Below are positions 5,291 through 49,994 of a stretch of 56,692 nucleotides of DNA, one piece after another; position 1 is the stretch's first letter, and every line of letters starts with the position of its first letter. A program made the position numbers and the translations under genes. Below the pieces are notes generated by a model that worked only from the letters and a program-made list of their open reading frames with translations, was not told the origin of the DNA and did no database searches. The DNA comes from a virus (lineage: Duplodnaviria; Caudoviricetes): positions 1 to 56,692 of the IMG/VR virus record IMGVR_UViG_3300050330_000084; one strand, 5' to 3'.

Positions 5291-5664
5291 GCTTCCCCTG
5301 CCCGGCGTTTCAGCGCCTCGTAGCTGTCGAGGCAGACTTCGTTGTCGCGGTAGAACAGCTTGCGGAGGCGCATGAAGTCCTCATGCTTCGCAGCTAAACG
5401 TCGTTGACGCCTGCGTTCTGCCCAATGGATGGCGCCGATGACGCCGGCATTGCCGAGCAACCAAAGGCCCGTAAGAACACCATAGACCTGCCAGTACCCC
5501 GGTAGCGGATACCAGGTCCCAACCGCGAGACGGGCTCCGATCTGGAGCGCCCCGATGAAGATGAACCCAGGGGCGAAGGCATACAGGATCGCAGCACAGA
5601 CGATACCGAAGCCTGCCATCATGGCGACGCCCGACATTGCCTTTCCGAGAGAGTGTCCGTCCAT
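5287..5664 (-). CDS. Membrane protein in lysis cassette (possible holin/antiholin)
   Basis: 2-3 TM segments and charged C-terminus; coupled to the endolysin stop. Confidence 0.55.
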   Translation of the reverse strand: MDGHSLGKAMSGVAMMAGFGIVCAAILYAFAPGFIFIGALQIGARLAVGTWYPLPGYWQVYGVLTGLWLLGNAGVIGAIHWAERRRQRRLAAKHEDFMRLRKLFYRDNEVCLDSYEALKRRAGEA

Positions 5665-6491
5665 CACGCCAGCCCTTCGCGAATGTCCTTGAATGCCCCG
5701 ATGATCTGCCGGCGCATCAGGATCAGGATCACCAGCATGACGATGGCCAGCCCGCCGATGGCAAGCACCGTCTGCCAGTCCGCCCCGAGCAGGCCGGCGA
5801 CGCCGACGCCACCCGAGCCGAAGATGCCGGTAATCCAGCCCCACAGGCTGGTCTTCTTCTTGACCTCGGCGTCGACGGTTTCGGGCACGGTCGGCACGTC
5901 TACCGGCACGGGCACCGTGACCTCGCGCACCGGCTGGCCTTCCGCGTGCCGGCGGCTGACCTCCGCCAGAGCCGCCTTGACCTGAGAGACAGACACGCCG
6001 GCATTCTGCCCGGCATAGTGGCCCTTCCCGTCCGGCTTGGGGATCGAGGCCCACTCCTGCGCCAGATTGCGCAACAGCGTGTCGAGTGCCAGGCGCCCGG
6101 ACAACCACTTGTCGATACCGCGCTGCCCTAGTAGGTAGCAGCCGAGGCGATCCTGCATCCCGGCATCGAAAAGCTCCTTGCCGGTGAGCCCGAGCTGTTC
6201 GCGGATGGTCCGGAGCGTGGTGCGGATGATCTGGTAGCGCCCCAGCGCCGAGGAGCGCAGCTTGTTCTTCGGATGCTGGAGCATCTTGGTCTGGAGCGCG
6301 TCGATCTGGAGCAGCGTCATGCCGACCAGATTCACGTCGCCGCCGGTGTAGGCTCCATATCCCAGCGTCTCGTTGTAGCCCCGGCCCTTATCCGTCCCCT
6401 CGGACTTGCCGATGAGATCGAGCATCGGGCGGTAGACGTAATACTTGTCGCGCGCAGCAGCAGTCGCCGCGCCGGTGGGCACGTTCGTCAT
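5664..6491 (-). CDS. Endolysin, lambda R-like lytic transglycosylase with C-terminal hydrophobic segments
   Basis: LDLIGKSEGT, SSALGRYQII, QEWASIP motifs typical of lambda-lysozyme-like enzymes. Confidence 0.85.
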   Translation of the reverse strand: MTNVPTGAATAAARDKYYVYRPMLDLIGKSEGTDKGRGYNETLGYGAYTGGDVNLVGMTLLQIDALQTKMLQHPKNKLRSSALGRYQIIRTTLRTIREQLGLTGKELFDAGMQDRLGCYLLGQRGIDKWLSGRLALDTLLRNLAQEWASIPKPDGKGHYAGQNAGVSVSQVKAALAEVSRRHAEGQPVREVTVPVPVDVPTVPETVDAEVKKKTSLWGWITGIFGSGGVGVAGLLGADWQTVLAIGGLAIVMLVILILMRRQIIGAFKDIREGLA

Positions 6492-6587
6492 GATGATGTC
6501 CTTTCGGTGGATGATGCCGGCAGCGCCGTTGACGCCGCGGAACGTGGCTGGCTAACTTTCCCGCCTTGCGTGAGGGAGGTCAGTCAC

Positions 6588-6701
6588 ATGCGTTACAATT
6601 GGGAGCGGGAACCCTATCCGTGGGAGAGGCACCCGACAGGCTGGATGATCGCAGCGGCGATTGTCGGGGCCTGCGCCATGGTGGCATGGCCGTTTATCTA
6701 G
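6588..6701 (+). CDS. 37-aa single-TM peptide
   Basis: GGGAGG RBS; TTGACG upstream; hydrophobic C-terminus. Confidence 0.5.
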   Translation: MRYNWEREPYPWERHPTGWMIAAAIVGACAMVAWPFI

Positions 6702-6708
6702 CGGCGGG

Positions 6709-6736
6709 TTGCCTCACAAAATTTGGCGGTTAATCT
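6709..6736 (+). promoter_or_regulatory. Putative sigma70 promoter of the structured RNA
   Basis: TTGCCT-N16-TAATCT; predicted start about 6742-6743 coincides with the base of the first hairpin. Confidence 0.55.
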
Positions 6737-6742
6737 AGTTGA

Positions 6743-7058
6743 GCTGCTCTCGGGGGATTTCGAGCAGCGCGCCCGGCCGTATGCTCGCCCCCCCCCCCCC
6801 GAGCAATCTCCTACGGCCGGGCGACCCTTGCAAAACCCAGCCAACAGCATAGGGTTGTGTCGCTGCCGCCCGCCTAGTGGCAGTAGCCCTGCCGCCGGTC
6901 GCATGCCACTCCAGACTGGCGGCCGGGCACTCAACCTTGAACCCGCCCGGCTACCGGCTACACTGAAGTTGCTGCCACAGACCTCCGGTAGCAGCCCGGC
7001 CGCACAGGCATATCCTCCTCGCTCACCCAGCGGCCGGGCATTTGCACTGTGGCAGCAA
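6743..7058 (+). ncRNA. Candidate multi-hairpin, pseudoknotted non-coding RNA
   Basis: Eight adjacent stems; 12-bp loop-to-tail pairing 6969-6980/7047-7058; G-U wobble pairs work only on the + strand; no convincing CDS. Confidence 0.65.
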
Positions 7059-7199
7059 GGCATGGCCGCGAGCATCGAGCCGTCCGCACTACCCTTGCGC
7101 GAATTTTTACCATTTGATCCAAAGTCCGTGGTATATGTTCCGCCGGAGGCGACGCTACACGGGCTTGGGGATGCACGTTTGCGAGTAGTTCAGGAGTTA

Positions 7200-7385
7200 G
7201 TGTTGGAGCAGATCGGCGACGATCTGTGCCTTGTGGTCAAGACGTCAGAAAGCCGTTTTCGCGGCATCCTTGGGGCCATCGATCCGGACATCATTCGTAG
7301 TTTGGGTGAGCGGGCAGCCGCCATCGCCGAAGCATATGAACGGCGTAATGGGATAGGCTTTAAGGCAAGTCTCTACGAAATCTGA
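7200..7385 (+). CDS. Small hypothetical protein (start uncertain: 7061, 7200 or 7203)
   Basis: AGGAG at 7192-7196; TGnTATATG extended -10-like sequence at 7129-7137. Confidence 0.45.
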   Translation: MLEQIGDDLCLVVKTSESRFRGILGAIDPDIIRSLGERAAAIAEAYERRNGIGFKASLYEI

Positions 7386-7581
7386 CGACGGCACACGGGC
7401 TTGCCGCATCACAGTTCGACCGCCCGCCATGGATCGTGTGCCAGCCAGCCGGCTCGGGATCAAGACGCGCCGTGGTGATGATGCCCGGCCCGACGTCGCG
7501 CGCGGTGTAGACCAGCCCTTCCGACGCTACCAGAGCGCTTGGGGTTGACTGACGTTTTGGCCGCTTTCGCGTTTTGCCCTA

Positions 7582-8208
7582 TTACCATCCCTGTTCGATG
7601 TCGATCAGGTCCAGCGCCGCGCCGTCCGCGGCGGCCTCGATCGCGTCCTTGAGCACCCAGCTATGGTCCATGCAGGCGGCGCCCCACGCTGCCATGGCAA
7701 GCAGCACGGCGAGCCCATCCGCAAAGGTCAGCGTGTAGGTGGCGTTGTCGGCCGTGCGGAACTTGGCGCCCTCGACCGCGCCGTCCTCGGCGGCAACGGC
7801 GGCGGAATAGCTCGCTTGGCTGACCAACCAGTTGGTTCGGTCTTCGACATTGCGGGTTTGCAGCACCTTGCCGGCCATGGCGCCGGACTGGACGGTGTAG
7901 CCGCCGGTCAGGATGGCGTCGAGCTTGGCGTTGACAGCCTCGCGCAGCGCGGCCTTGCGCTCGGCCAGCGTCATGTCGGCGATGGTCCACGTCACCACGA
8001 CGCGGTCTTCGTGGACCTCCCACGCGGCCATCGGGTCTTCGGCGGCCGTCTGCTGGATCGGATCATATTGCGGTTGCTCGCGCACGATCGGCAGCCAGCC
8101 GTCCTGTGCCAACCGCTCGTCGCTGACCGGGGAGCCGTCGTCGGTGCGCCAGTCAGGGCGCAGCCCGACGCGCACCACGACATCGTTTTCGACCTGGGCG
8201 TACATCAT
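7582..8208 (-). CDS. Tail fibre assembly-like protein (DUF4376-like C-terminus)
   Basis: P-YDPIQQ N-terminal part and LKDAIEAAAD..ALDLIDI..GW end; last gene of the fibre module. Confidence 0.65.
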   Translation of the reverse strand: MMYAQVENDVVVRVGLRPDWRTDDGSPVSDERLAQDGWLPIVREQPQYDPIQQTAAEDPMAAWEVHEDRVVVTWTIADMTLAERKAALREAVNAKLDAILTGGYTVQSGAMAGKVLQTRNVEDRTNWLVSQASYSAAVAAEDGAVEGAKFRTADNATYTLTFADGLAVLLAMAAWGAACMDHSWVLKDAIEAAADGAALDLIDIEQGW

Positions 8209-8945
8209 GAGCCGTAGACCTTTTTCCAGGTGCCGCCGTCACGCACATGCTGCTGCTGGACCGGCTTCCAGATGCCGCCGTCTCGCACCTGCAAGTCCTG
8301 CACCGGCTTCCAAAGCCCGCCATCCTTAACGTAGAGGTCGGTCTTCTTGGCGCGCGGGGCGGGATCGCCAGCTGTGCCGACCGAAATCCAGTTGAGATAC
8401 CAGGTGCCCGAACCTCCACCGGAGGTGGTTGAGGCGCCCCACAGCCAGTCGGAGGCGGTGAATGTGCCGGGAAAGGCGATCGACGCAGCCTCTCCAGCGG
8501 GCTCCACATCACCGAACTTCCAGCATTGCGCGTAAACGGTCGCCGTGCGCTTGCGCAGTCTGAGCCAGTACCATTCCGCATCCGATATGCTGAAGCCCAA
8601 AGACGGAGTAACTTCGTTCACGCTGTTGTGGAGGCCGATAAAGCTGTTGTTGCGAACGACGTAGGCATAAAGCGATGTCGAACCTCCACTTACGGCGAGA
8701 TAGGTCGTCGCGTTAATAATCGAAGCCAAACGCGCGAGGATCAGTATCTCGAAGTCGCTGCCAGCAAGACTGGTGATGTTGGTGTTTGGCACCACCGAGA
8801 AATCACCGCCATAAGGAGTGCCAGTGGTCACAACCTTGAGAGCCTGCGCGCCGATGACGACGGGCGAGGATACAAGGCTTGCCGATCCGCCGCCCCCATT
8901 TTGGAGCGGATTGCCGCCGGAGATATCGCTAACGTATTGAGCCAT
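8205..8945 (-). CDS. Putative receptor-binding/adhesin protein
   Basis: Beta-rich domain plus three C-terminal V(K/R)DGGxWKxV repeats; follows the fibre gene. Confidence 0.6.
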   Translation of the reverse strand: MAQYVSDISGGNPLQNGGGGSASLVSSPVVIGAQALKVVTTGTPYGGDFSVVPNTNITSLAGSDFEILILARLASIINATTYLAVSGGSTSLYAYVVRNNSFIGLHNSVNEVTPSLGFSISDAEWYWLRLRKRTATVYAQCWKFGDVEPAGEAASIAFPGTFTASDWLWGASTTSGGGSGTWYLNWISVGTAGDPAPRAKKTDLYVKDGGLWKPVQDLQVRDGGIWKPVQQQHVRDGGTWKKVYGS

Positions 8946-10369
8946 CAGATTTTGGCCCAGAAATCCCCGTCAGCGCCGCCCGAAGGATCAGACGTGCTGA
9001 TGGTGACGGCGCGCTGGCCCATCGTGCCGACGCCGGCAAAGCTGCGCACGTCCGCCGCCGACAGCTCCTGAAGCGCGCCGGTGCCGGCCGAGGTGCGGCC
9101 GAGCATGCGCGCCGTCGTCATGGTGAGGCCGGAGGTTGTGGCCGCGCCGCTCTTGGCTGCGGCTACCCATGACGCGCCATCATAGGTCTGGAGCACGCCA
9201 TCGGTCGTGTTGTAGATTACAAGACCAGTAGCAGGCGAAGAGATCGCATTGCGTTGCGTGGTGGTCATGCGAGGGGGTAGCAGGCCCTTCGCGGTGCTGC
9301 TGAGATCAAGCAGCGCCGATGCGGCGGGACTTGCCGTGCCGACGCCGACATTGCCGTTCGCCCCGATCCTCAGCCGCTCGTTGGCGGCGCCCGCCAGTCT
9401 GGACCGGAAAACCAGGGCGCCCGAATTGTCGGCGCCGTCGCGGACGGCACCGAAGGAGGCGATCTCGTTGTCCACGCCGGCATTGTCCCGGATAGAGAAA
9501 ACAAAAGCGCCGCCGAAGCCGTCGACCATGTCGCCCGTCGCGTAGTTCACGGTCAGCCGGTTGACCGTGCTGATCCCGTTGCCGCTCGTCGTCAGCCGCT
9601 CGAACAAGGCCAGCCCGGCTACGCTGCCCGAGACAGTAAGCGAGCCAATTACCGTCTGGTCTCCGGTAAACGTGTTGCTCTCGGAGAGTATGGCAGCGAC
9701 GCCGCCGTCCTTGATCAGCTTGCCGGTCGTACCGTCGAAGACGGCGACGTGGCCGTCCGCCACGCTGGACGGGCCGGAAACGTCGCCCGTGCCCGCGCCA
9801 TCCTCGCCCTGTGGAATTTCGAAGTCGAGCACGGCCGCATTCGAGGTGCCGACATTTGTGACGGTCGCCGGCTCCCCGGCCGCCACCGTGGTGACGGTCC
9901 CTATCGTGATCGTGGCAGCAGCACCATCATCGCCGTCATCTCCGTCCTCGCCGTTGAGAGACGCCAGCCATGCCGCCTGATCGCCGACGAAACCGTTGGC
10001 AACCGCAACCTGATAGGCCGATTTACCCTCGTCTCCTTTCAGGTCGACATAGCTCCCCCACGCGCCGCCCGGCTGACGGAATCGCAACTGCGTGCCAGAC
10101 CAGCCGTGCTCCGGTGCCGGCCCGCGGAGATCGACATAGACGCCCCAGGACCCATCGATCTGCTGGAACCGGAGTTGCGTCCCATCCCATTCGTGATCCG
10201 GCCTCGGCCCGACCTCGCCAGTGCCTCCGACCAGCGAGGCAAGCCAATCCTCGACAGTACCGACAAAGCCATTGTCGAGAGCGATCTGGTAGGCGGACTT
10301 GCCGGCCGGCCCCGAACGGGTGACCGATACCCCGGACGGCGGCCGTGGCGTGACTGATACGACGGTCAT
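8945..10369 (-). CDS. Tail fibre protein with collagen-like segments
   Basis: GKSAYQ(I/V)A..NGFVG repeats, VDLRGP, GNVGVGTASP, TISTSDPSGGADGDFW end. Confidence 0.85.
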   Translation of the reverse strand: MTVVSVTPRPPSGVSVTRSGPAGKSAYQIALDNGFVGTVEDWLASLVGGTGEVGPRPDHEWDGTQLRFQQIDGSWGVYVDLRGPAPEHGWSGTQLRFRQPGGAWGSYVDLKGDEGKSAYQVAVANGFVGDQAAWLASLNGEDGDDGDDGAAATITIGTVTTVAAGEPATVTNVGTSNAAVLDFEIPQGEDGAGTGDVSGPSSVADGHVAVFDGTTGKLIKDGGVAAILSESNTFTGDQTVIGSLTVSGSVAGLALFERLTTSGNGISTVNRLTVNYATGDMVDGFGGAFVFSIRDNAGVDNEIASFGAVRDGADNSGALVFRSRLAGAANERLRIGANGNVGVGTASPAASALLDLSSTAKGLLPPRMTTTQRNAISSPATGLVIYNTTDGVLQTYDGASWVAAAKSGAATTSGLTMTTARMLGRTSAGTGALQELSAADVRSFAGVGTMGQRAVTISTSDPSGGADGDFWAKI

Positions 10370-10746
10370 GTGCGGGTGATTCCTCGCCTGATCTCGATGG
10401 CGCCGCCTGCAATCGTGTCGCGGTTGCCGTCGGCATCTATCCACACGATGTCCCAGACGTATTCGCCAGGGACGATGAGGCGCATGGTGGTTTCCGGGAC
10501 GTTCCAGGAGACGACGCCGGTCGTTGCGCTCCCGGTGTCGCCCTGGTCCGGGGCGATTTCGAGCAAGCCGTTGTCCGTCGAGGCTGCCAGGATGATCGAC
10601 AGCCTGTCGGCCGTCTCGCGGATATGGGCGATGAAAGTGCTGCCGGTCAGATCGACGGGGCCGTCATCATCCTCGATGACGATGCCGTCCCGCCAGTCCT
10701 CGTTGGTCAAGACGAGATACTCGATCTCGGTATATTCGCTGCTCAT
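10366..10746 (-). CDS. Fibre adaptor (BppU-N-like)
   Basis: PVDLTG....HIR, YVWDIV...G....IAGG.IEIRRGITR pattern. Confidence 0.65.
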   Translation of the reverse strand: MSSEYTEIEYLVLTNEDWRDGIVIEDDDGPVDLTGSTFIAHIRETADRLSIILAASTDNGLLEIAPDQGDTGSATTGVVSWNVPETTMRLIVPGEYVWDIVWIDADGNRDTIAGGAIEIRRGITRT

Positions 10747-13114: not shown

Positions 13115-13807
13115 TTAGTTGAGAGTGATTTCCGACGGGAACACGCCGTCGCAGAAGCCGCCCCAGCCGCTGCCGCAGCCGAAGGCCGGGCCATTGCCGT
13201 GCCAGATTTCCAGCCGGATGCCCGGCGCCACGGGCAGCACCTGCTGGTAGAGATGAGCGATGGAAATCTCGATGCCGGTGAGCAGACGCCCGGCATAGAG
13301 GGCCACCTTGCCCGGCCCCTCCCGCAGGATGCAGGCGTCCTCGCCGAACACCTCACGGGCGCCCGCGGCAATCCCGTTGCGGGTATAGTCGCCCGTCAAG
13401 GTGATGATCCGCGCCTTGAGAAAGCCGCGGTACAGTTCGTCGTCGGTAAAGCAGAACTCGACATAGTCAGGGCCGTTGCCGCAGTCCCATTCCGCCTCGC
13501 AGAAGCCGCCGATCGGCACCGGCGGCGGGCCGCAGTCGCCGATACAGGCGAAGCCGAAGACCGGCCTGCGCTGCCCCTTGCAATGGCAGCGCGGCCAGCC
13601 CAGCACCTTGCCGAGGATGGTGAGCTGGTCCCCGACCGCCGTGTCGATGTCGAAATGCTCCAGCATCTCGCATGCCTGCCGGGCGACCGTGGCCATCTCC
13701 GTCAGGTAGGCGCGCGCCATCCCGAGCAGGTTCGGGCTTTCCCGCCATTGGGTCAGGACCCGGTCGATTCTCTCCTCGACCAGGTCCGGCACGTCACGGC
13801 AGACCAT
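13115..13807 (-). CDS. Baseplate wedge protein (DUF2612-like)
   Basis: TQWRESPNL, FDIDTAVGDQLTILG, DDELYRGFLKARI. Confidence 0.82.
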   Translation of the reverse strand: MVCRDVPDLVEERIDRVLTQWRESPNLLGMARAYLTEMATVARQACEMLEHFDIDTAVGDQLTILGKVLGWPRCHCKGQRRPVFGFACIGDCGPPPVPIGGFCEAEWDCGNGPDYVEFCFTDDELYRGFLKARIITLTGDYTRNGIAAGAREVFGEDACILREGPGKVALYAGRLLTGIEISIAHLYQQVLPVAPGIRLEIWHGNGPAFGCGSGWGGFCDGVFPSEITLN

Positions 13808-47831: not shown

Positions 47832-48301
47832 GCCGCGCCTCGCAGGATCGGCGTCTTGCCTTCAACGGCCCGGAACTTGTCGGCACAGCGATAAACCTCG
47901 GCCCAGGTGACCTTCCTCGGCCGGCCGTGTGCTGTCCGCATGAATGGCTGGTTGCTGGAGACGGTGAGGATGACGCCGTGCTTTTCGAGATAGACCTTGA
48001 GGCTCAGGTAGTCGGTCGAAAAGCCCTGCTCGAACCGGCGGGGACCGCCATTGCGCTTGAGCCAGTCCGCGATAAGCAGGTTGTCATTGGTGACGACACA
48101 GAGTTTGGGCCTTTCGACGGGGAGCGCTGGAGCCTCCGTCTTCGGACCCGGCTTGCCGCGGGTCGTCACGCCGAGCGCCTTGACCCGCTTGCGAACGGAA
48201 TTGCTGTGCCTGCCGAGATGCTCGGATATCTCGTTGATCGAGCATCCACGCGCAGCCATGGCGCGGGTCGTGGTATCCTCTTGCTTCGTGAAGCGAGCCA
48301 T
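47828..48301 (-). CDS. HTH-containing hypothetical protein
   Basis: GCSINEISEHLGRHSNSVRKRVKALG. Confidence 0.65.
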   Translation of the reverse strand: MARFTKQEDTTTRAMAARGCSINEISEHLGRHSNSVRKRVKALGVTTRGKPGPKTEAPALPVERPKLCVVTNDNLLIADWLKRNGGPRRFEQGFSTDYLSLKVYLEKHGVILTVSSNQPFMRTAHGRPRKVTWAEVYRCADKFRAVEGKTPILRGAA

Positions 48302-49680
48302 CAGGCAGCCCTCGCCTTGATCTGCGCGTCGCGGCATTTCCAGCACAGGGCAGATGTTTGAAACTTGATCCGGCAACTGTCCGGGCTCAGGCAGCCCGGC
48401 TTGGGAGAAGTGACGGCATCTCCCGATTTGGCGTTGCTTCCGGGCATGGCGCCCTGCCCCGCCGCCAGAGCATCGGGAGTTGGTGTGCTCGGTTGGCCGT
48501 CGGCAACCGCCGGATTCGCGGGGCAATGAAGGGCGGCCGAGGCGCCCGGGGAGGAGGAAGGCGCCTCGGCCCTACCTACCTGTCGGGAGGAGGAGACAGG
48601 CAGATCGGAAATTTCGGCCGTGGCAGATGGGCGGGGGGCTTGGGGATCAGCCACGGCCACGGACGGCGACGGTTCAACGCCAGCGGCGTTCTCAGGTCGG
48701 GCCGTGCCCTTCACCTCGGAGAATGCGTCGCCGTCCGGTGGGGAAAATTGTGCCCGTTTAGCGTCCGGGCCAGACGTAGTCCACTCTACAAAATTATCGC
48801 TATTCCGGGTTTCAACCTGCCCGGACAGTGCATCGAAAGGTTGGCCTGCGTGACCTGCGCGCTTCGCGCTGCCATCTACATCGTTGCCTCCTGCGTTGGC
48901 ACCGTCGCTGCCCATATCTCGGGGAGCGTGCCCGGCGGTCTTCTGCTCCGGTGCTGGGGAATTGATGAAAGCGCGGACTTCTTCCCGCTCTGCTTCGCTC
49001 GCCTCATTCCAGAGAGCCAGGATTTCGGCGACGATGGTCCGCGAAGGGGTGGTGACCTCGGCAGCGATTTCCGGCTCAGAAGCCTTGGAAATGATGGGCT
49101 CCGGGGTGGTGGCATCAGTCGCCAAGTTTTCCATGACAACTGCCGGCTTCGCCTTCGCGACCTTCTGCGTGTAGACCGTGCCGCCGCGCTCGACCTCTAC
49201 CTCGGCGGGTCTATCTGGCAACGTTGCCAGATGCTCGGCCCTGATCTTCTGGACGTAGGTGTGCGAGACATTGGCCGTCGTCGCGATCCAGCGCTCCGGT
49301 TTGGCGGCCCATTCCGCATCGTTCAGCAGCGTCATGACAGCCCGGCGCTTGTCGTCGCGGGTGCGCCGCAAGCCGTGCGTCTCATTGGCACCGACGCTGT
49401 GCAGGATTGCATCGCGACGGGTGCCCTGGCGAATATCGGCGGCGACCTTCGCCTTGCCTGCCTTCTGATAGGCATGGAAGCGATGGAAGCCATCGGCCAG
49501 CCAGTGCTTCTTGCCGTCGTAGAACACGACAATCGGCGGGAATGTCGCGCCGGCCTTGATCGCCTCGGCGTAGTCATCGACCACATGCTGATTGAGCGTG
49601 GCGCGGGACTGGGTGCCGCCGTCGATCTGGATGACGTCGAGGGAAAGGCCGTGATCTTCGGAGGAGCCGACGCGGATCAT
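48301..49680 (-). CDS. ParB-like N-terminal domain protein with low-complexity tail
   Basis: TQSR, FPPIVV, LADGFHR, N..HGL, then HTH and a long Ala/Pro/Ser region. Confidence 0.8.
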   Translation of the reverse strand: MIRVGSSEDHGLSLDVIQIDGGTQSRATLNQHVVDDYAEAIKAGATFPPIVVFYDGKKHWLADGFHRFHAYQKAGKAKVAADIRQGTRRDAILHSVGANETHGLRRTRDDKRRAVMTLLNDAEWAAKPERWIATTANVSHTYVQKIRAEHLATLPDRPAEVEVERGGTVYTQKVAKAKPAVVMENLATDATTPEPIISKASEPEIAAEVTTPSRTIVAEILALWNEASEAEREEVRAFINSPAPEQKTAGHAPRDMGSDGANAGGNDVDGSAKRAGHAGQPFDALSGQVETRNSDNFVEWTTSGPDAKRAQFSPPDGDAFSEVKGTARPENAAGVEPSPSVAVADPQAPRPSATAEISDLPVSSSRQVGRAEAPSSSPGASAALHCPANPAVADGQPSTPTPDALAAGQGAMPGSNAKSGDAVTSPKPGCLSPDSCRIKFQTSALCWKCRDAQIKARAA

Positions 49681-49994
49681 GCGACAACTCCCTTCGTTGC
49701 CTTCCGACGGAAGCCTGCGCGCTGCGCGGCGACCCGGACGTATGCCGGATGGACATTGAAGCGATGGGCAATTGATGAAGACTGCTCGCCGGCCATGTAT
49801 GCCGCGATCATCTCCATGCGACGTTCGCGGGTGAGCGTGTGGGTGCGGCGGTTCCACGTGCGGCGCTTCGGCCAACGCCCGACCTTTTTGGCTTCACGGG
49901 CGATTGATGCCGCTGCTTCCTCGCCGAGCAACAAGGCCGCAGATTGGTATGCGGAATGAAACTCATCTGGAACCCATGCCGGAACGTTGCTCAT
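49677..49994 (-). CDS. HTH-containing hypothetical protein
   Basis: Coupled to cro; SSSIAHRFNVHPAYV. Confidence 0.6.
   Translation of the reverse strand: MSNVPAWVPDEFHSAYQSAALLLGEEAAASIAREAKKVGRWPKRRTWNRRTHTLTRERRMEMIAAYMAGEQSSSIAHRFNVHPAYVRVAAQRAGFRRKATKGVVA

What the first reader, a model, noticed from the sequence alone, without database searches (positions are those of the whole stretch)
6709..7058. Promoter-linked eight-hairpin pseudoknotted RNA with loops antisense to ribosome-binding sites and start codons
Seen: TTGCCT-N16-TAATCT puts a start at about 6743, where back-to-back stems begin: 6743-6768, 6770-6823, about 6834-6856, 6862-6884, 6891-6923, 6922-6951, 6950-6992 and 6994-7039. 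Several stems reuse GCCCGGC/GCCGGGC. Loop 6969-6980 (TTGCTGCCACAG) pairs perfectly with 7047-7058, forming a pseudoknot, next to a TGCAAA/TTTGCA closing helix. G-U pairs in two stems favour the + strand. Each loop differs, yet reverse complements read like translation starts: GAGGAGGATATGCC (7007-7020), TGGAGTGGCATGC (6901-6913), GGAGATTGCTC (6801-6811), TCAAGGTTGAGTG (6928-6940). Established: alphaproteobacterial cuckoo/alpha-r14 sRNAs carry anti-SD CCUCCUCCC loops, but those are near-identical. Inference: a modular multi-guide translational repressor (scaffold plus variable loops) made by the lysogen against genes of competing phages or the host. I saw no extended target for these loops among this phage's gene starts.
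Basis: partly seen in the sequence, partly recalled or inferred. Interest (0 to 1): 0.8.

Follow-up and report, generated by a model that had tools for sequence, protein, structure and literature searches.

The report
Hairpin stack behind a prophage moron
A 350-base run of GC-rich hairpins in a rhizobial-type prophage is real and evolves by swapping hairpin modules, but it looks more like the structured tail of a tiny membrane-protein gene than a multi-guide regulatory RNA.

Summary
The hairpins are real. The + strand of 6743-7060 folds far better than shuffles (z -4.96) and the 12-nt perfect long-range complement exists. Not all eight stems can coexist, because H5, H6 and H7 share arms.

The array lies in a 1.1-kb + strand insert between the minus-strand tail-fibre-assembly-like gene and the endolysin. 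It follows a 37-aa membrane-type ORF (6588-6701) and precedes a 68-aa ORF (true start about 7179).

Two metagenome relatives, L011 and L012, keep both flanks at 89-94% identity but carry fewer hairpins. Their loops are mosaics of shared pieces. The GCCCGGCCGC/GCGGCCGGGC stems stay perfect, with two or three compensatory changes.

The "-10" box is a duplicate of the 37-aa ORF's last codons.

- No Rfam family matches, although a true cuckoo-type element at 48531-48612 is detected the same way.
- The strand bias in anti-SD words is explained by C-richness.
- No loop pairs with phage gene starts better than shuffled loops.

Best reading: a recombination-shuffled 3'UTR and terminator stack of a moron. 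A trans-acting anti-SD RNA is not excluded.

The parts
5664..6491 (-). Endolysin gene (left neighbour, late operon)
   Evidence: PHROG phrog_90 endolysin, E 1.2e-21. Relatives are in rhizobiophages.
6529..6557 (+). Promoter-like TTGACG-N17-CTAACT in front of the 37-aa ORF
   Evidence: Read from the sequence. Identical hexamers in L011 and L012. Not called by the strict scan. RNA-library contigs begin 6570-6581. This is an inference.
6588..6701 (+). 37-aa ORF: charged N-terminus plus one hydrophobic stretch, with a GGGAGG ribosome site 9 nt upstream
   Evidence: 97% and 95% identical in L011 and L012. Substitutions are 3 synonymous and 2 conservative. No Pfam or PHROG hit.
6709..6736 (+).
   Evidence: Present and kept in L011, but absent in L012. 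6724-6738 is an 87% direct repeat of 6687-6701, the end of the 37-aa ORF (D4). Not called by the scan.
6743..6768 (+). H1, 7-bp stem
   Evidence: Kept in L011, absent in L012.
6770..6823 (+). H2, an A-type hairpin (12-bp GCCCGGCCG stem) with an inner stem around a C12 loop
   Evidence: (I4). Pair 6780/6813 is U-A here and C-G in L011.
6830..6860 (+). H3, a weak hairpin
   Evidence: -8.3 kcal/mol on both strands. L011 has a different small hairpin at this place.
6862..6884 (+). H4, a B-type hairpin (GCUGCC/GGCAGU) with 2 G-U pairs
   Evidence: In L011 both G-U pairs are G-C. 6861-6929 also occurs in a DNA contig of run X2 with other flanks.
6886..6928 (+). H5, an A-type hairpin, 14 bp with one mismatch
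   Evidence: (I3). Its arms recur as the terminal hairpin arms of L012.
6922..6951 (+). H6. It shares its 5' arm with the 3' arm of H5.
   Evidence: Lies in the window-specific segment.
6950..6992 (+). H7, 8-bp stem. Its loop holds 6969-6980.
   Evidence: Displaced by the 12-bp long-range helix in the MFE.
6994..7045 (+). H8, the terminal A-type hairpin (10 bp, loop with UCCUCCUC), followed by AUUUGC. A terminator candidate.
   Evidence: (I10). The 3' arm plus ATTTGC is kept in L011 and L012. Not called by the terminator scan.
6930..7040 (+). 111-nt segment present only in the window, bounded by the 11-nt direct repeat GCGGCCGGGCA (6919-6929 and 7030-7040)
   Evidence: D7. L011 and L012 lack it.
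6969..6980 (+). 5' arm of the 12-bp perfect long-range helix
   Evidence: I5. Absent from L011 and L012.
7047..7058 (+). 3' arm of the 12-bp helix. It lies in the conserved 3' flank.
   Evidence: I5. L011 and L012 read TTGTGACAGCAA here.
7179..7385 (+). 68-aa ORF (TTG start, GGGGA 7 nt upstream). The longer 107-aa reading from 7062 is probably not translated.
   Evidence: Homologues P0003-P0005 start at this point. L013 has the same layout. Codons 1-39 show about 8 replacements against 2 silent changes between the window and L012.
7582..8208 (-). DUF4376 tail-fibre-assembly-like gene (right neighbour, late operon)
   Evidence: Pfam PF14301, E 8.2e-17.

Best explanation
The array is the non-coding, highly structured tail of a small + strand moron cassette. 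The cassette sits antisense inside the late operon, between the tail-fibre and lysis genes.

Transcription starts at a promoter in front of the 37-aa membrane-type ORF (TTGACG-N17-CTAACT, 6529-6557) and runs through the ORF into the hairpins. It mostly ends at the last GCCCGGCCGC hairpin followed by AUUUGC.

The hairpins act in cis in two ways. They stop and insulate + strand transcription so that it does not run on into the separately promoted 68-aa gene and the tail genes. They also protect the 3' end of the short mRNA.

The units are paralogues of two stem types: A (GCCCGGCCG.../...CGGCCGGGC) and B (GCUGCC/GGCAGC). They multiply, delete and exchange loop pieces by recombination or template switching between the repeated stems. 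That is why close relatives carry about 3, 5 or 8 of them.

Shown: the structure, the mosaic evolution, stem maintenance, the gene layout, and the lack of family membership. Inferred: the promoter, the transcript ends, termination and stabilisation.
For: 1. Layout. The 1.1-kb insert lies between minus-strand late genes. In Rhizobium phage RHph_X2_24, a rhizobiophage that shares only the endolysin relative, the lysozyme gene starts 18 nt after the preceding structural gene, with no insert.
2. The cassette of 37-aa ORF, array and 68-aa ORF recurs in L011 and L012. There it sits next to a different lysis-side gene, with no tblastn hit to this endolysin. Similarity starts at that gene's start codon.
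3. Flanks are 89-94% identical (5' flank to L012 93.8%, 3' flanks 91.1% and 89.1%; the window-L011 5' block, which runs on into the array, is 84.8%). The array holds 324 nt in the window against 121 nt in L012, and L011 lacks about 6896-6985.
4. Loops are mosaics. The L011 terminal loop ends with the 3' half of the window's H2 (19 of 20 nt). The L012 terminal hairpin combines the window's H5 arms with 13 nt of the H2 loop. The window-only 111 nt is bounded by an 11-nt direct repeat.
5. A-type stems remain perfect at 10-12 bp in all three loci. Compensatory changes are U-A to C-G at 6780/6813, and A-U (L011) to C-G (L012) at the 11th pair of the terminal stem.
6. All three arrays fold better than shuffles on the + strand: z -4.96, -4.57 and -3.54.
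7. Contigs from three RNA libraries of three studies cover the 37-aa ORF from 6570-6581 and continue into L012-type array sequence. One runs 124 nt on, to about the terminal hairpin. A DNA contig runs across 6570-6581. The tool rates this kind of pattern a weak hint.
8. The 220-aa + ORF across the array has no family and is not kept in L012.
Against: - No strand-specific RNA data exist. The RNA-library contigs cannot show strand and may be DNA carry-over. They are of the L012 type, not the window type.
- The terminal hairpin has only three U in its tail, and the terminator scan does not call it.
- Neither promoter passes the consensus scan.
- Eight hairpins are far more than termination needs.
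- The marked C excess on the + strand is not explained by a plain terminator. C is 40% and G 28%, and the GC skew of -0.18 lies in the lowest 0.5% of 316-nt windows.
- Comparative evidence rests on three loci only.
Confidence: 0.45

Rival explanations
1. The array is a source of trans-acting small RNAs processed from the 3'UTR, whose C-rich loops pair with Shine-Dalgarno regions. This would work like the CcsR/cuckoo RNAs, which are cut by RNase E from the 3'UTR of a small ORF's mRNA.
For: - The layout is the same: a small ORF followed by tandem hairpins. CcsR1-4 are four homologous sRNAs of two hairpins each, co-transcribed with the 71-aa ccaF1 gene (PMC8034643, passages read).
- Anti-SD core words occur 8, 6 and 4 times on the + strand against 0, 0 and 2 on the - strand in the three arrays.
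- Every variant keeps C-rich loops although their sequences differ: C12 and UCCUCCUC in the window, CCCUCC and CUCUCCCACC in L011, CCCUCCC and C8 in L012.
- In Rhizobiaceae genomes the same GCCCGGCCG stem often carries a (A/U)UCCCCCUCC loop followed by a U-tract, in sRNA-like conserved elements. These show weak ar7 similarity.
- This prophage also carries a cuckoo-type element elsewhere.
Against: - The word excess is explained by dinucleotide composition: shuffles reach it in 59/300, 9/300 and 41/300.
- No loop pairs with this phage's gene starts better than shuffled loops. The best cases are L5 at -24.2 against -20.6 +/- 2.0, and L8 at -30.3 against -27.5 +/- 2.8.
- There is no Rfam match even at E up to 10.
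- Loops are not conserved as seeds would be.
- The 37-aa ORF is not DUF1127.
Confidence: 0.2
2. The array is a DNA-level by-product with no RNA function. GC-rich palindromes pile up at a module boundary where phages recombine, made by template switching and unequal exchange and kept because they are harmless. Alternatively they are REP/BIME-like elements of the host.
For: - Mosaic exchange of half-hairpins and direct-repeat-bounded indels.
- The perfect 12-nt inverted copy is window-specific, as expected of a recent template switch.
- At least three array variants occur in one metagenome run. Window 6861-6929 sits there in a contig with other flanks.
- A 38-nt 89% match lies in the opposite orientation relative to the local genes in genome G164.
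- Half of the stems are more stable on the minus strand.
Against: - No second copy in the 56.7-kb provirus.
- No array-length match in 400 sampled Rhizobiaceae genomes: 12 of 400 had only 27-51-nt matches, and only 2 candidates per genome were scored.
- A single decent copy in G164, where 22 of 22 candidates were scored.
- The 9+9 stem pattern occurs at most 8 times per genome, in 58 of 201 genomes, far below REP copy numbers.
- The consistent + strand C excess in all three variants and the compensatory changes suggest selection on one strand.
Confidence: 0.2
3. One reading: an independent RNA started at about 6743 from TTGCCT-N16-TAATCT, folding into eight hairpins plus a pseudoknot and acting as a multi-guide repressor of rival phage or host genes.
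For: The box and H1 are kept in L011. The scaffold-plus-variable-loop pattern is real. The structure is significant on the + strand.
Against: - The box and H1 are absent in L012, the variant type seen in the RNA libraries.
- The -10 box is a duplicate of the ORF's end (D4).
- No promoter is called.
- The pseudoknot partner is absent in both relatives.
- The hairpins overlap each other.
- No targets were found.
Confidence: 0.05
4. The structure serves the minus strand. It makes the untranslated 1.1-kb stretch of the late transcript G-rich and tightly folded, so that Rho cannot load and lysis genes are still reached. The C-rich + strand would conversely favour Rho-dependent ending of antisense transcripts.
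For: - The late genes on both sides are on the minus strand.
- By reading the sequence after each stem on the minus strand, I saw no stem followed by a U-tract there. The terminator scan's single site in 6300-7700 is on the + strand.
- The strong C over G skew on + equals G over C on -.
- The minus strand has the lower absolute MFE.
Against: - The minus-strand z-score is weak in the window (-1.37).
- The G-U pairs of H4 and H5 favour the + strand.
- The endolysin may have its own promoter.
- This is pure inference, with no test available here.
Confidence: 0.07

Closest known systems
CcsR / cuckoo / ar14 sRNAs of Alphaproteobacteria (Rfam RF02791, RF02344)
   Same: Tandem GC-rich hairpins in modular, variable numbers, with C-rich anti-SD-like loops, lying behind a small ORF whose 3'UTR they form (PMC4615179 and PMC8034643, passages read).
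   Different: - Cuckoo RNAs keep the loop (CCUCCUCCC) and vary the stems. Here the stems are kept and the loops vary.
- The array holds no exact CCUCCUCCC, only CCTCCTCGC at 7014-7022.
- No covariance-model match at E up to 10.
- The upstream ORF is not DUF1127.
ar7 (RF02342) and similar rhizobial sRNAs with a terminator hairpin that carries a CCCCCUC loop
   Same: The same GCCCGGCCG/CGGCCGGGC stem with a C-rich loop and a U-containing tail is found in Rhizobiaceae chromosomes.
   Different: Those are single conserved elements with a clear U-tract and conserved 5' parts. The array shares only the stem design. There is no ar7 match in the array.
REP/BIME clusters (RIME in rhizobia)
   Same: Extragenic GC-rich palindromes in mosaic clusters of variable unit number between genes. 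Such clusters are known to stabilise upstream mRNA and attenuate read-through (from my own knowledge; only the listing was seen).
   Different: No dispersed copies were found in the provirus or in the genomes searched. The host genome is not available.
Phage morons (promoter, gene and terminator units inserted between genes of an operon)
   Same: A small gene unit in opposite orientation between tail and lysis genes, and absent from Rhizobium phage RHph_X2_24, which shares only the endolysin relative. It has its own promoter-like box and a terminal hairpin.
   Different: One terminator is usual. Here 3 to 8 paralogous hairpins follow the gene and are reshuffled among close relatives.

Membership tests
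Cuckoo / CcsR / ar14 | 2-4 adjacent hairpins, each loop carrying CCUCCUCCC (PMC4615179) | tested here: not met
   0 exact copies in 6743-7058 and one 1-mismatch copy at 7014-7022. The loops all differ.
Cuckoo / CcsR / ar14 | Match to the Rfam covariance models | tested here: not met
   No hit at gathering score, nor at E up to 10 in 6400-7400, L011 or L012. Positive control: 48531-48612 gives CcsR1 at 36.5 bits, E 1.9e-7, and ar14 at 34.9 bits.
Cuckoo / CcsR (CIN1 subgroup) | Adjacent DUF1127 ORF | tested here: not met
   The 37-aa ORF and the 107-aa reading have no Pfam hit at E up to 0.01.
Cuckoo / CcsR | Co-transcription with the upstream small ORF and processing into stable sRNAs | tested here: inconclusive
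   RNA-library contigs join the ORF to L012-type array sequence. Strand, RNA origin and processing cannot be seen in contigs.
REP / BIME / RIME | Many dispersed copies in the host genome | tested here: inconclusive
   - No second copy in the provirus.
- No array-length match in 400 Rhizobiaceae genomes (2 candidates scored per genome).
- One copy in G164.
- Stem pattern at most 8 per genome.
- The host genome itself is not held.
REP / BIME / RIME | Short GC-rich extragenic palindromes in mosaic clusters | tested here: met
REP / BIME / RIME | Association with a RAYT (REP-associated tyrosine transposase) | not tested
   No host genome; not searched in the window.
Intrinsic terminator | GC-rich stem directly followed by a U-tract | tested here: inconclusive
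   H8 is a 10-bp GC stem followed by AUUUGC, kept in all three loci. The scan needs a loop of 3-8 nt and at least 5 T in 8, and does not call it.
Phage moron | Extra gene unit with its own signals between genes that are adjacent in related phages | tested here: met
   In RHph_X2_24 the lysozyme gene starts 18 nt after the preceding structural gene, with no insert. The cassette recurs next to a different lysis-side gene in L011 and L012.
Protein-coding region | Conserved open frame with family or purifying selection | tested here: not met
   The 220-aa + ORF has no Pfam or PHROG hit. In L012 the frame starts only at the ATG equivalent to 7062. Indels of 1, 2 and 203 nt break any frame.

The most novel reading that the evidence does not exclude
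The array is a prophage-borne relative in design, not in sequence, of the CcsR/cuckoo system. A lysogen-expressed mRNA for a 37-aa membrane peptide would carry a 3'UTR that is processed into several hairpin sRNAs. Their C-rich loops are reshuffled by recombination between constant GCCCGGCCG stems. Closely related phages would therefore carry different sets of anti-SD-type seeds, a cassette-like, fast-evolving repertoire of translational repressors.
Probability: 0.15. Interest if true: 0.65.

Novelty: new member of a known kind. Interest (0 to 1): 0.3.

Why it matters
If the cis reading holds, this is a clear example of how moron cassettes in temperate phages carry and reshuffle terminator-type hairpins at module borders. 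That helps with annotation: the 107-aa and 220-aa ORFs should not be called. It is not surprising.

It would matter more if the C-rich loops prove to be seeds. Constant stems with exchangeable loops behind a small ORF would be a new way to diversify regulatory RNAs in prophages of Alphaproteobacteria. The locus offers three natural variants to test this.

Tried and rejected
- **Rfam.** The whole window at gathering score gave 0 hits. 6400-7400 at E up to 10 gave only Xoo8 at 11.1 bits, E 1.7. L011 and L013 gave 0. L012 gave only weak miRNA-type noise.
- **blastn of the array** against phages and plasmids found no match.
- **Endolysin relatives.** Nine viral contigs (L002-L010) were compared. 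None holds the insert; the best blastn hit was 26 nt at E 0.044.
- **Viral-contig scans** for the 12-bp helix pair and for the 3' anchor gave 0 hits each. The 107-aa protein found no relative in viral contigs or genome contigs.
- **Genome-contig scan** for GCCCGGCCGC-N12-42-GCGGCCGGGC returned generic hairpins of high-GC bacteria, mostly actinomycetes. It says nothing about this element.
- **68-aa protein profile in 400 Rhizobiaceae genomes.** 3 of 400 had hits and only one was plausible (G010). There the gene follows a chromosomal gene without any array. The 68-aa protein against phages gave no match.
- **Coding reading of the array.** Rejected.
- **Loop against gene-start duplex test.** No signal. 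It used crude gene calls: 165 candidates, surely with false ones.
- **GCCCGGC cluster at 13185-13310.** It lies in a coding region and is not a second array.
- **Read laying.** No contig of the four runs covered 6714-6860 or 6936-7009. This is a lack of cover only and proves nothing.
- **The search of earlier findings.** Four notes exist on other parts of this window and none bears on this region. No look-alike by sequence.
- **RIME literature.** Only the search listing was seen. No paper was read, so the REP/RIME comparison rests on my own knowledge.
- **Supplements of papers** were not opened. Lists of cuckoo candidates in the supplements of PMC4615179 might bear on the element at 48.5 kb.
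Full report
**Setting.** The window is a complete IMG/VR provirus record of 56,692 bases, and no host genome is held. Around the finding, the minus strand carries late genes:
- a tail-fibre gene at 8945-10444;
- a 246-aa gene at 8205-8945;
- a DUF4376 tail-fibre-assembly-like gene at 7582-8208 (Pfam E 8.2e-17);
- after a 1,090-base gap, an endolysin at 5664-6491 (phrog_90, E 1.2e-21);
- a spanin-like gene.

The gap 6492-7581 is read on the + strand. It holds a 37-aa ORF (6588-6701, GGGAGG ribosome site, one hydrophobic stretch), the hairpin array (6743-7058), and an ORF listed as 107 aa (7062-7385). Endolysin relatives occur in Sinorhizobium and Rhizobium phages. In one of them, RHph_X2_24, the lysozyme gene starts 18 nt after the preceding structural gene. 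The 1.1-kb + strand unit is therefore an insert of the moron type.

- Each of the eight stems folds locally.
- The + strand of 6743-7060 folds at -152.9 kcal/mol against -127.1 +/- 5.2 for shuffles (z -4.96, 0 of 100 as good).
- The heptamers GCCCGGC and GCCGGGC occur 3 of 25 and 3 of 17 times in these 316 bases.
- 6969-6980 and 7047-7058 are perfectly complementary over 12 nt.

There are caveats. H5/H6 and H6/H7 share bases, so the eight stems are alternatives. The MFE uses the 12-bp helix in place of H7, so there is no demonstrated pseudoknot. The minus strand folds to -161.3 but with z only -1.37. H4 and H5 favour the + strand through G-U pairs, whereas H2, H6, H7 and H8 are more stable on the minus strand. 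The promoter scan calls nothing in 6300-7700.

**Known families.** No Rfam family reaches its threshold in the window. At E up to 10 the region gives only noise, and so do the two relatives. This negative is meaningful because the same kind of scan detects a cuckoo-type element elsewhere in the window. At 48531-48612 on the minus strand, two hairpins each carry an exact CCUCCUCCC loop, scoring CcsR1 36.5 bits (E 1.9e-7) and ar14 34.9 bits.

The cuckoo family is defined by 2-4 adjacent hairpins that all carry CCUCCUCCC while the stems vary (PMC4615179, passages). The array shows the reverse: constant stems and variable loops, with no exact motif. It is therefore not a member.

**Relatives.** blastn against phages and plasmids found nothing. 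Nine viral contigs with a related endolysin lack the insert. The 107-aa protein has five database relatives. A metagenome scan gave four loci.

L011 (97% protein identity) and L012 (90%) hold the whole cassette. Their flanks match the window as follows:
- the window-L011 5' block, which runs on into the array (6492-6895), is 84.8% identical;
- the L011 3' flank is 91.1% identical;
- the L012 5' flank is 93.8% identical;
- the L012 3' flank is 89.1% identical.

The array differs in size. L011 lacks about 6896-6985. In both relatives the gene on the lysis side is unrelated to the window's endolysin (no tblastn hit), and similarity begins at its start codon. The cassette thus travels as a unit at the border between the tail and lysis modules.

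**How the array evolves.** The hairpins fall into two paralogous stem types. Type A is GCCCGGCCG(C)/(G)CGGCCGGGC, seen in H2, H5 and H8. Type B is GCUGCC/GGCAG, seen in H4 and the long-range helix. Pieces are exchanged between them:
- The last 20 nt of L011's terminal hairpin equal the 3' half of the window's H2 (19 of 20).
- L012's terminal hairpin has the arms of the window's H5 and 13 nt of the H2 loop.
- The window-only 111 nt (6930-7040) is bounded by the 11-nt direct repeat GCGGCCGGGCA (D7).
- The 12-nt inverted copy at 6969-6980 exists only in the window.
- One metagenome run holds at least three variants, including a contig with 6861-6929 between other flanks.

Despite this turnover, A-type stems stay perfect at 10-12 bp. 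I count these stem changes:
- U-A to C-G at 6780/6813, window against L011.
- A-U in L011 against C-G in L012 at the 11th pair of the terminal stem; the window has A.A there.
- C...G in the window against U...A in L012 between the B-type 5' arm and the 3' flank. L011 breaks this one with C...A.
- Two G-U pairs of H4 are G-C in L011.

With three sequences this is suggestive only. Palindrome-copying mechanisms would also keep the arms complementary.

**Strand asymmetry and the anti-SD idea.** The + strand of the array is 40% C and 28% G. Its GC skew of -0.18 lies in the lowest 0.5% of 316-nt windows. L012 shows -0.16 and L011 -0.09.

The words CTCC and CCTC occur 8, 6 and 4 times on the + strand against 0, 0 and 2 on the minus strand. 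Dinucleotide shuffles of the + strand reach these counts in 59, 9 and 41 of 300 trials.

A duplex test of eight loops against 165 crudely called gene starts of the phage found none better than shuffled loops by more than about 1.8 sd.

The design itself is not foreign to rhizobia. In 58 of 201 sampled Rhizobiaceae genomes the same 9+9 stem occurs, at most 8 times per genome. By my own reading of the listed matches, roughly a dozen or more carry loops such as AUCCCCCUCC. Three of these lie in a conserved sRNA-like element with a U-tract and weak ar7 similarity (18.9 bits).

**Transcription.** It is identical in L011 and L012, although the strict scan does not call it.

Contigs from three RNA libraries of three studies cover the 37-aa ORF. 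They begin at 6580, 6581 and 6570 and continue into L012-type array sequence for 124, 50 and 18 nt. A DNA contig crosses 6570-6581. The tool rates such coincident ends a weak hint. Contigs show no strand, and DNA carry-over is possible. The longest contig would end near L012's terminal hairpin, which fits one short transcript made of the ORF and the array.

**The downstream gene.** The downstream gene is probably 68 aa. Shorter homologues start there and L013 has the same GGGGAG-N7-start layout. Codons 1-39 of the 107-aa reading differ between the window and L012 by about 8 replacements and 2 silent changes. A distant chromosomal homologue in G010 has no array, so the array belongs with the 37-aa ORF and not with this gene.

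**Verdict.**
- Most likely (0.45): the array is the structured 3'UTR and terminator stack of a lysogen-type moron gene. It acts in cis and evolves by recombination between its own repeated stems.
- A CcsR-like set of 3'UTR-derived anti-SD sRNAs (0.2; PMC8034643, passages) remains open. So do a function-less recombination by-product or REP-like element (0.2) and a minus-strand anti-Rho role (0.07).

The finding is a real and tidy structure, but of modest interest until RNA data exist.

Noticed in passing
window 48531-48612 (- strand): A cuckoo-type element: two adjacent hairpins, each with an exact CCUCCUCCC loop. It scores CcsR1 (RF02791) 36.5 bits, E 1.9e-7, and ar14 34.9 bits, both below gathering score. 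Fold z is -4.34. It lies inside the 3' part of a long minus-strand ORF (48301-49875). This may be a prophage-borne anti-SD sRNA.
   Followed up: partly
window 7062-7385: The 107-aa ORF is probably over-extended. The conserved protein is 68 aa from TTG 7179 and has no Pfam or PHROG family. It has few relatives: 5 in 5.8 billion clusters, 3 of 400 Rhizobiaceae genomes, and one in a Mesorhizobium MAG by the source's own name.
   Followed up: partly
window 6588-6701: A 37-aa ORF with a strong ribosome site and one hydrophobic stretch. It is nearly invariant in L011 and L012 and present in contigs of three RNA libraries. It could be a small membrane peptide of a moron (exclusion factor or type I toxin-like). 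It was too short for the database search tools.
   Followed up: partly
L011 1-140 and L012 1-163: The cassette sits next to a lysis-side gene unrelated to the window's endolysin, with the junction of similarity exactly at that gene's start codon. By recall, its N-terminus reads like a GH108-type lysozyme; this was not tested.
   Followed up: no
L171 1501-1528, L173 1501-1532, L174 1501-1532 (genomes G122, G067, G185): A conserved sRNA-like element in Rhizobiaceae chromosomes. It reads GGUUCCCUGCCCCGUCC, then a small hairpin, then a GCCCGGCCG stem with an AUCCCCCUCC loop and CUUGUUUU. No Rfam hit at gathering score; weak ar7 similarity at 18.9 bits.
   Followed up: partly
L135 1501-1538 (G164:C12:55009-55046): A 38-nt 89% match to window 6863-6900, in the 80-nt spacer between a dehydrogenase-like gene and a small ORF. 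By recall the small ORF looks like DUF1127; this was not tested. The match is in opposite orientation to those genes and is a single copy in that genome.
   Followed up: partly
window 5664-6491: The endolysin carries a C-terminal hydrophobic tail of two hydrophobic stretches after residue 215. Several phage relatives match only residues 10-216.
   Followed up: no
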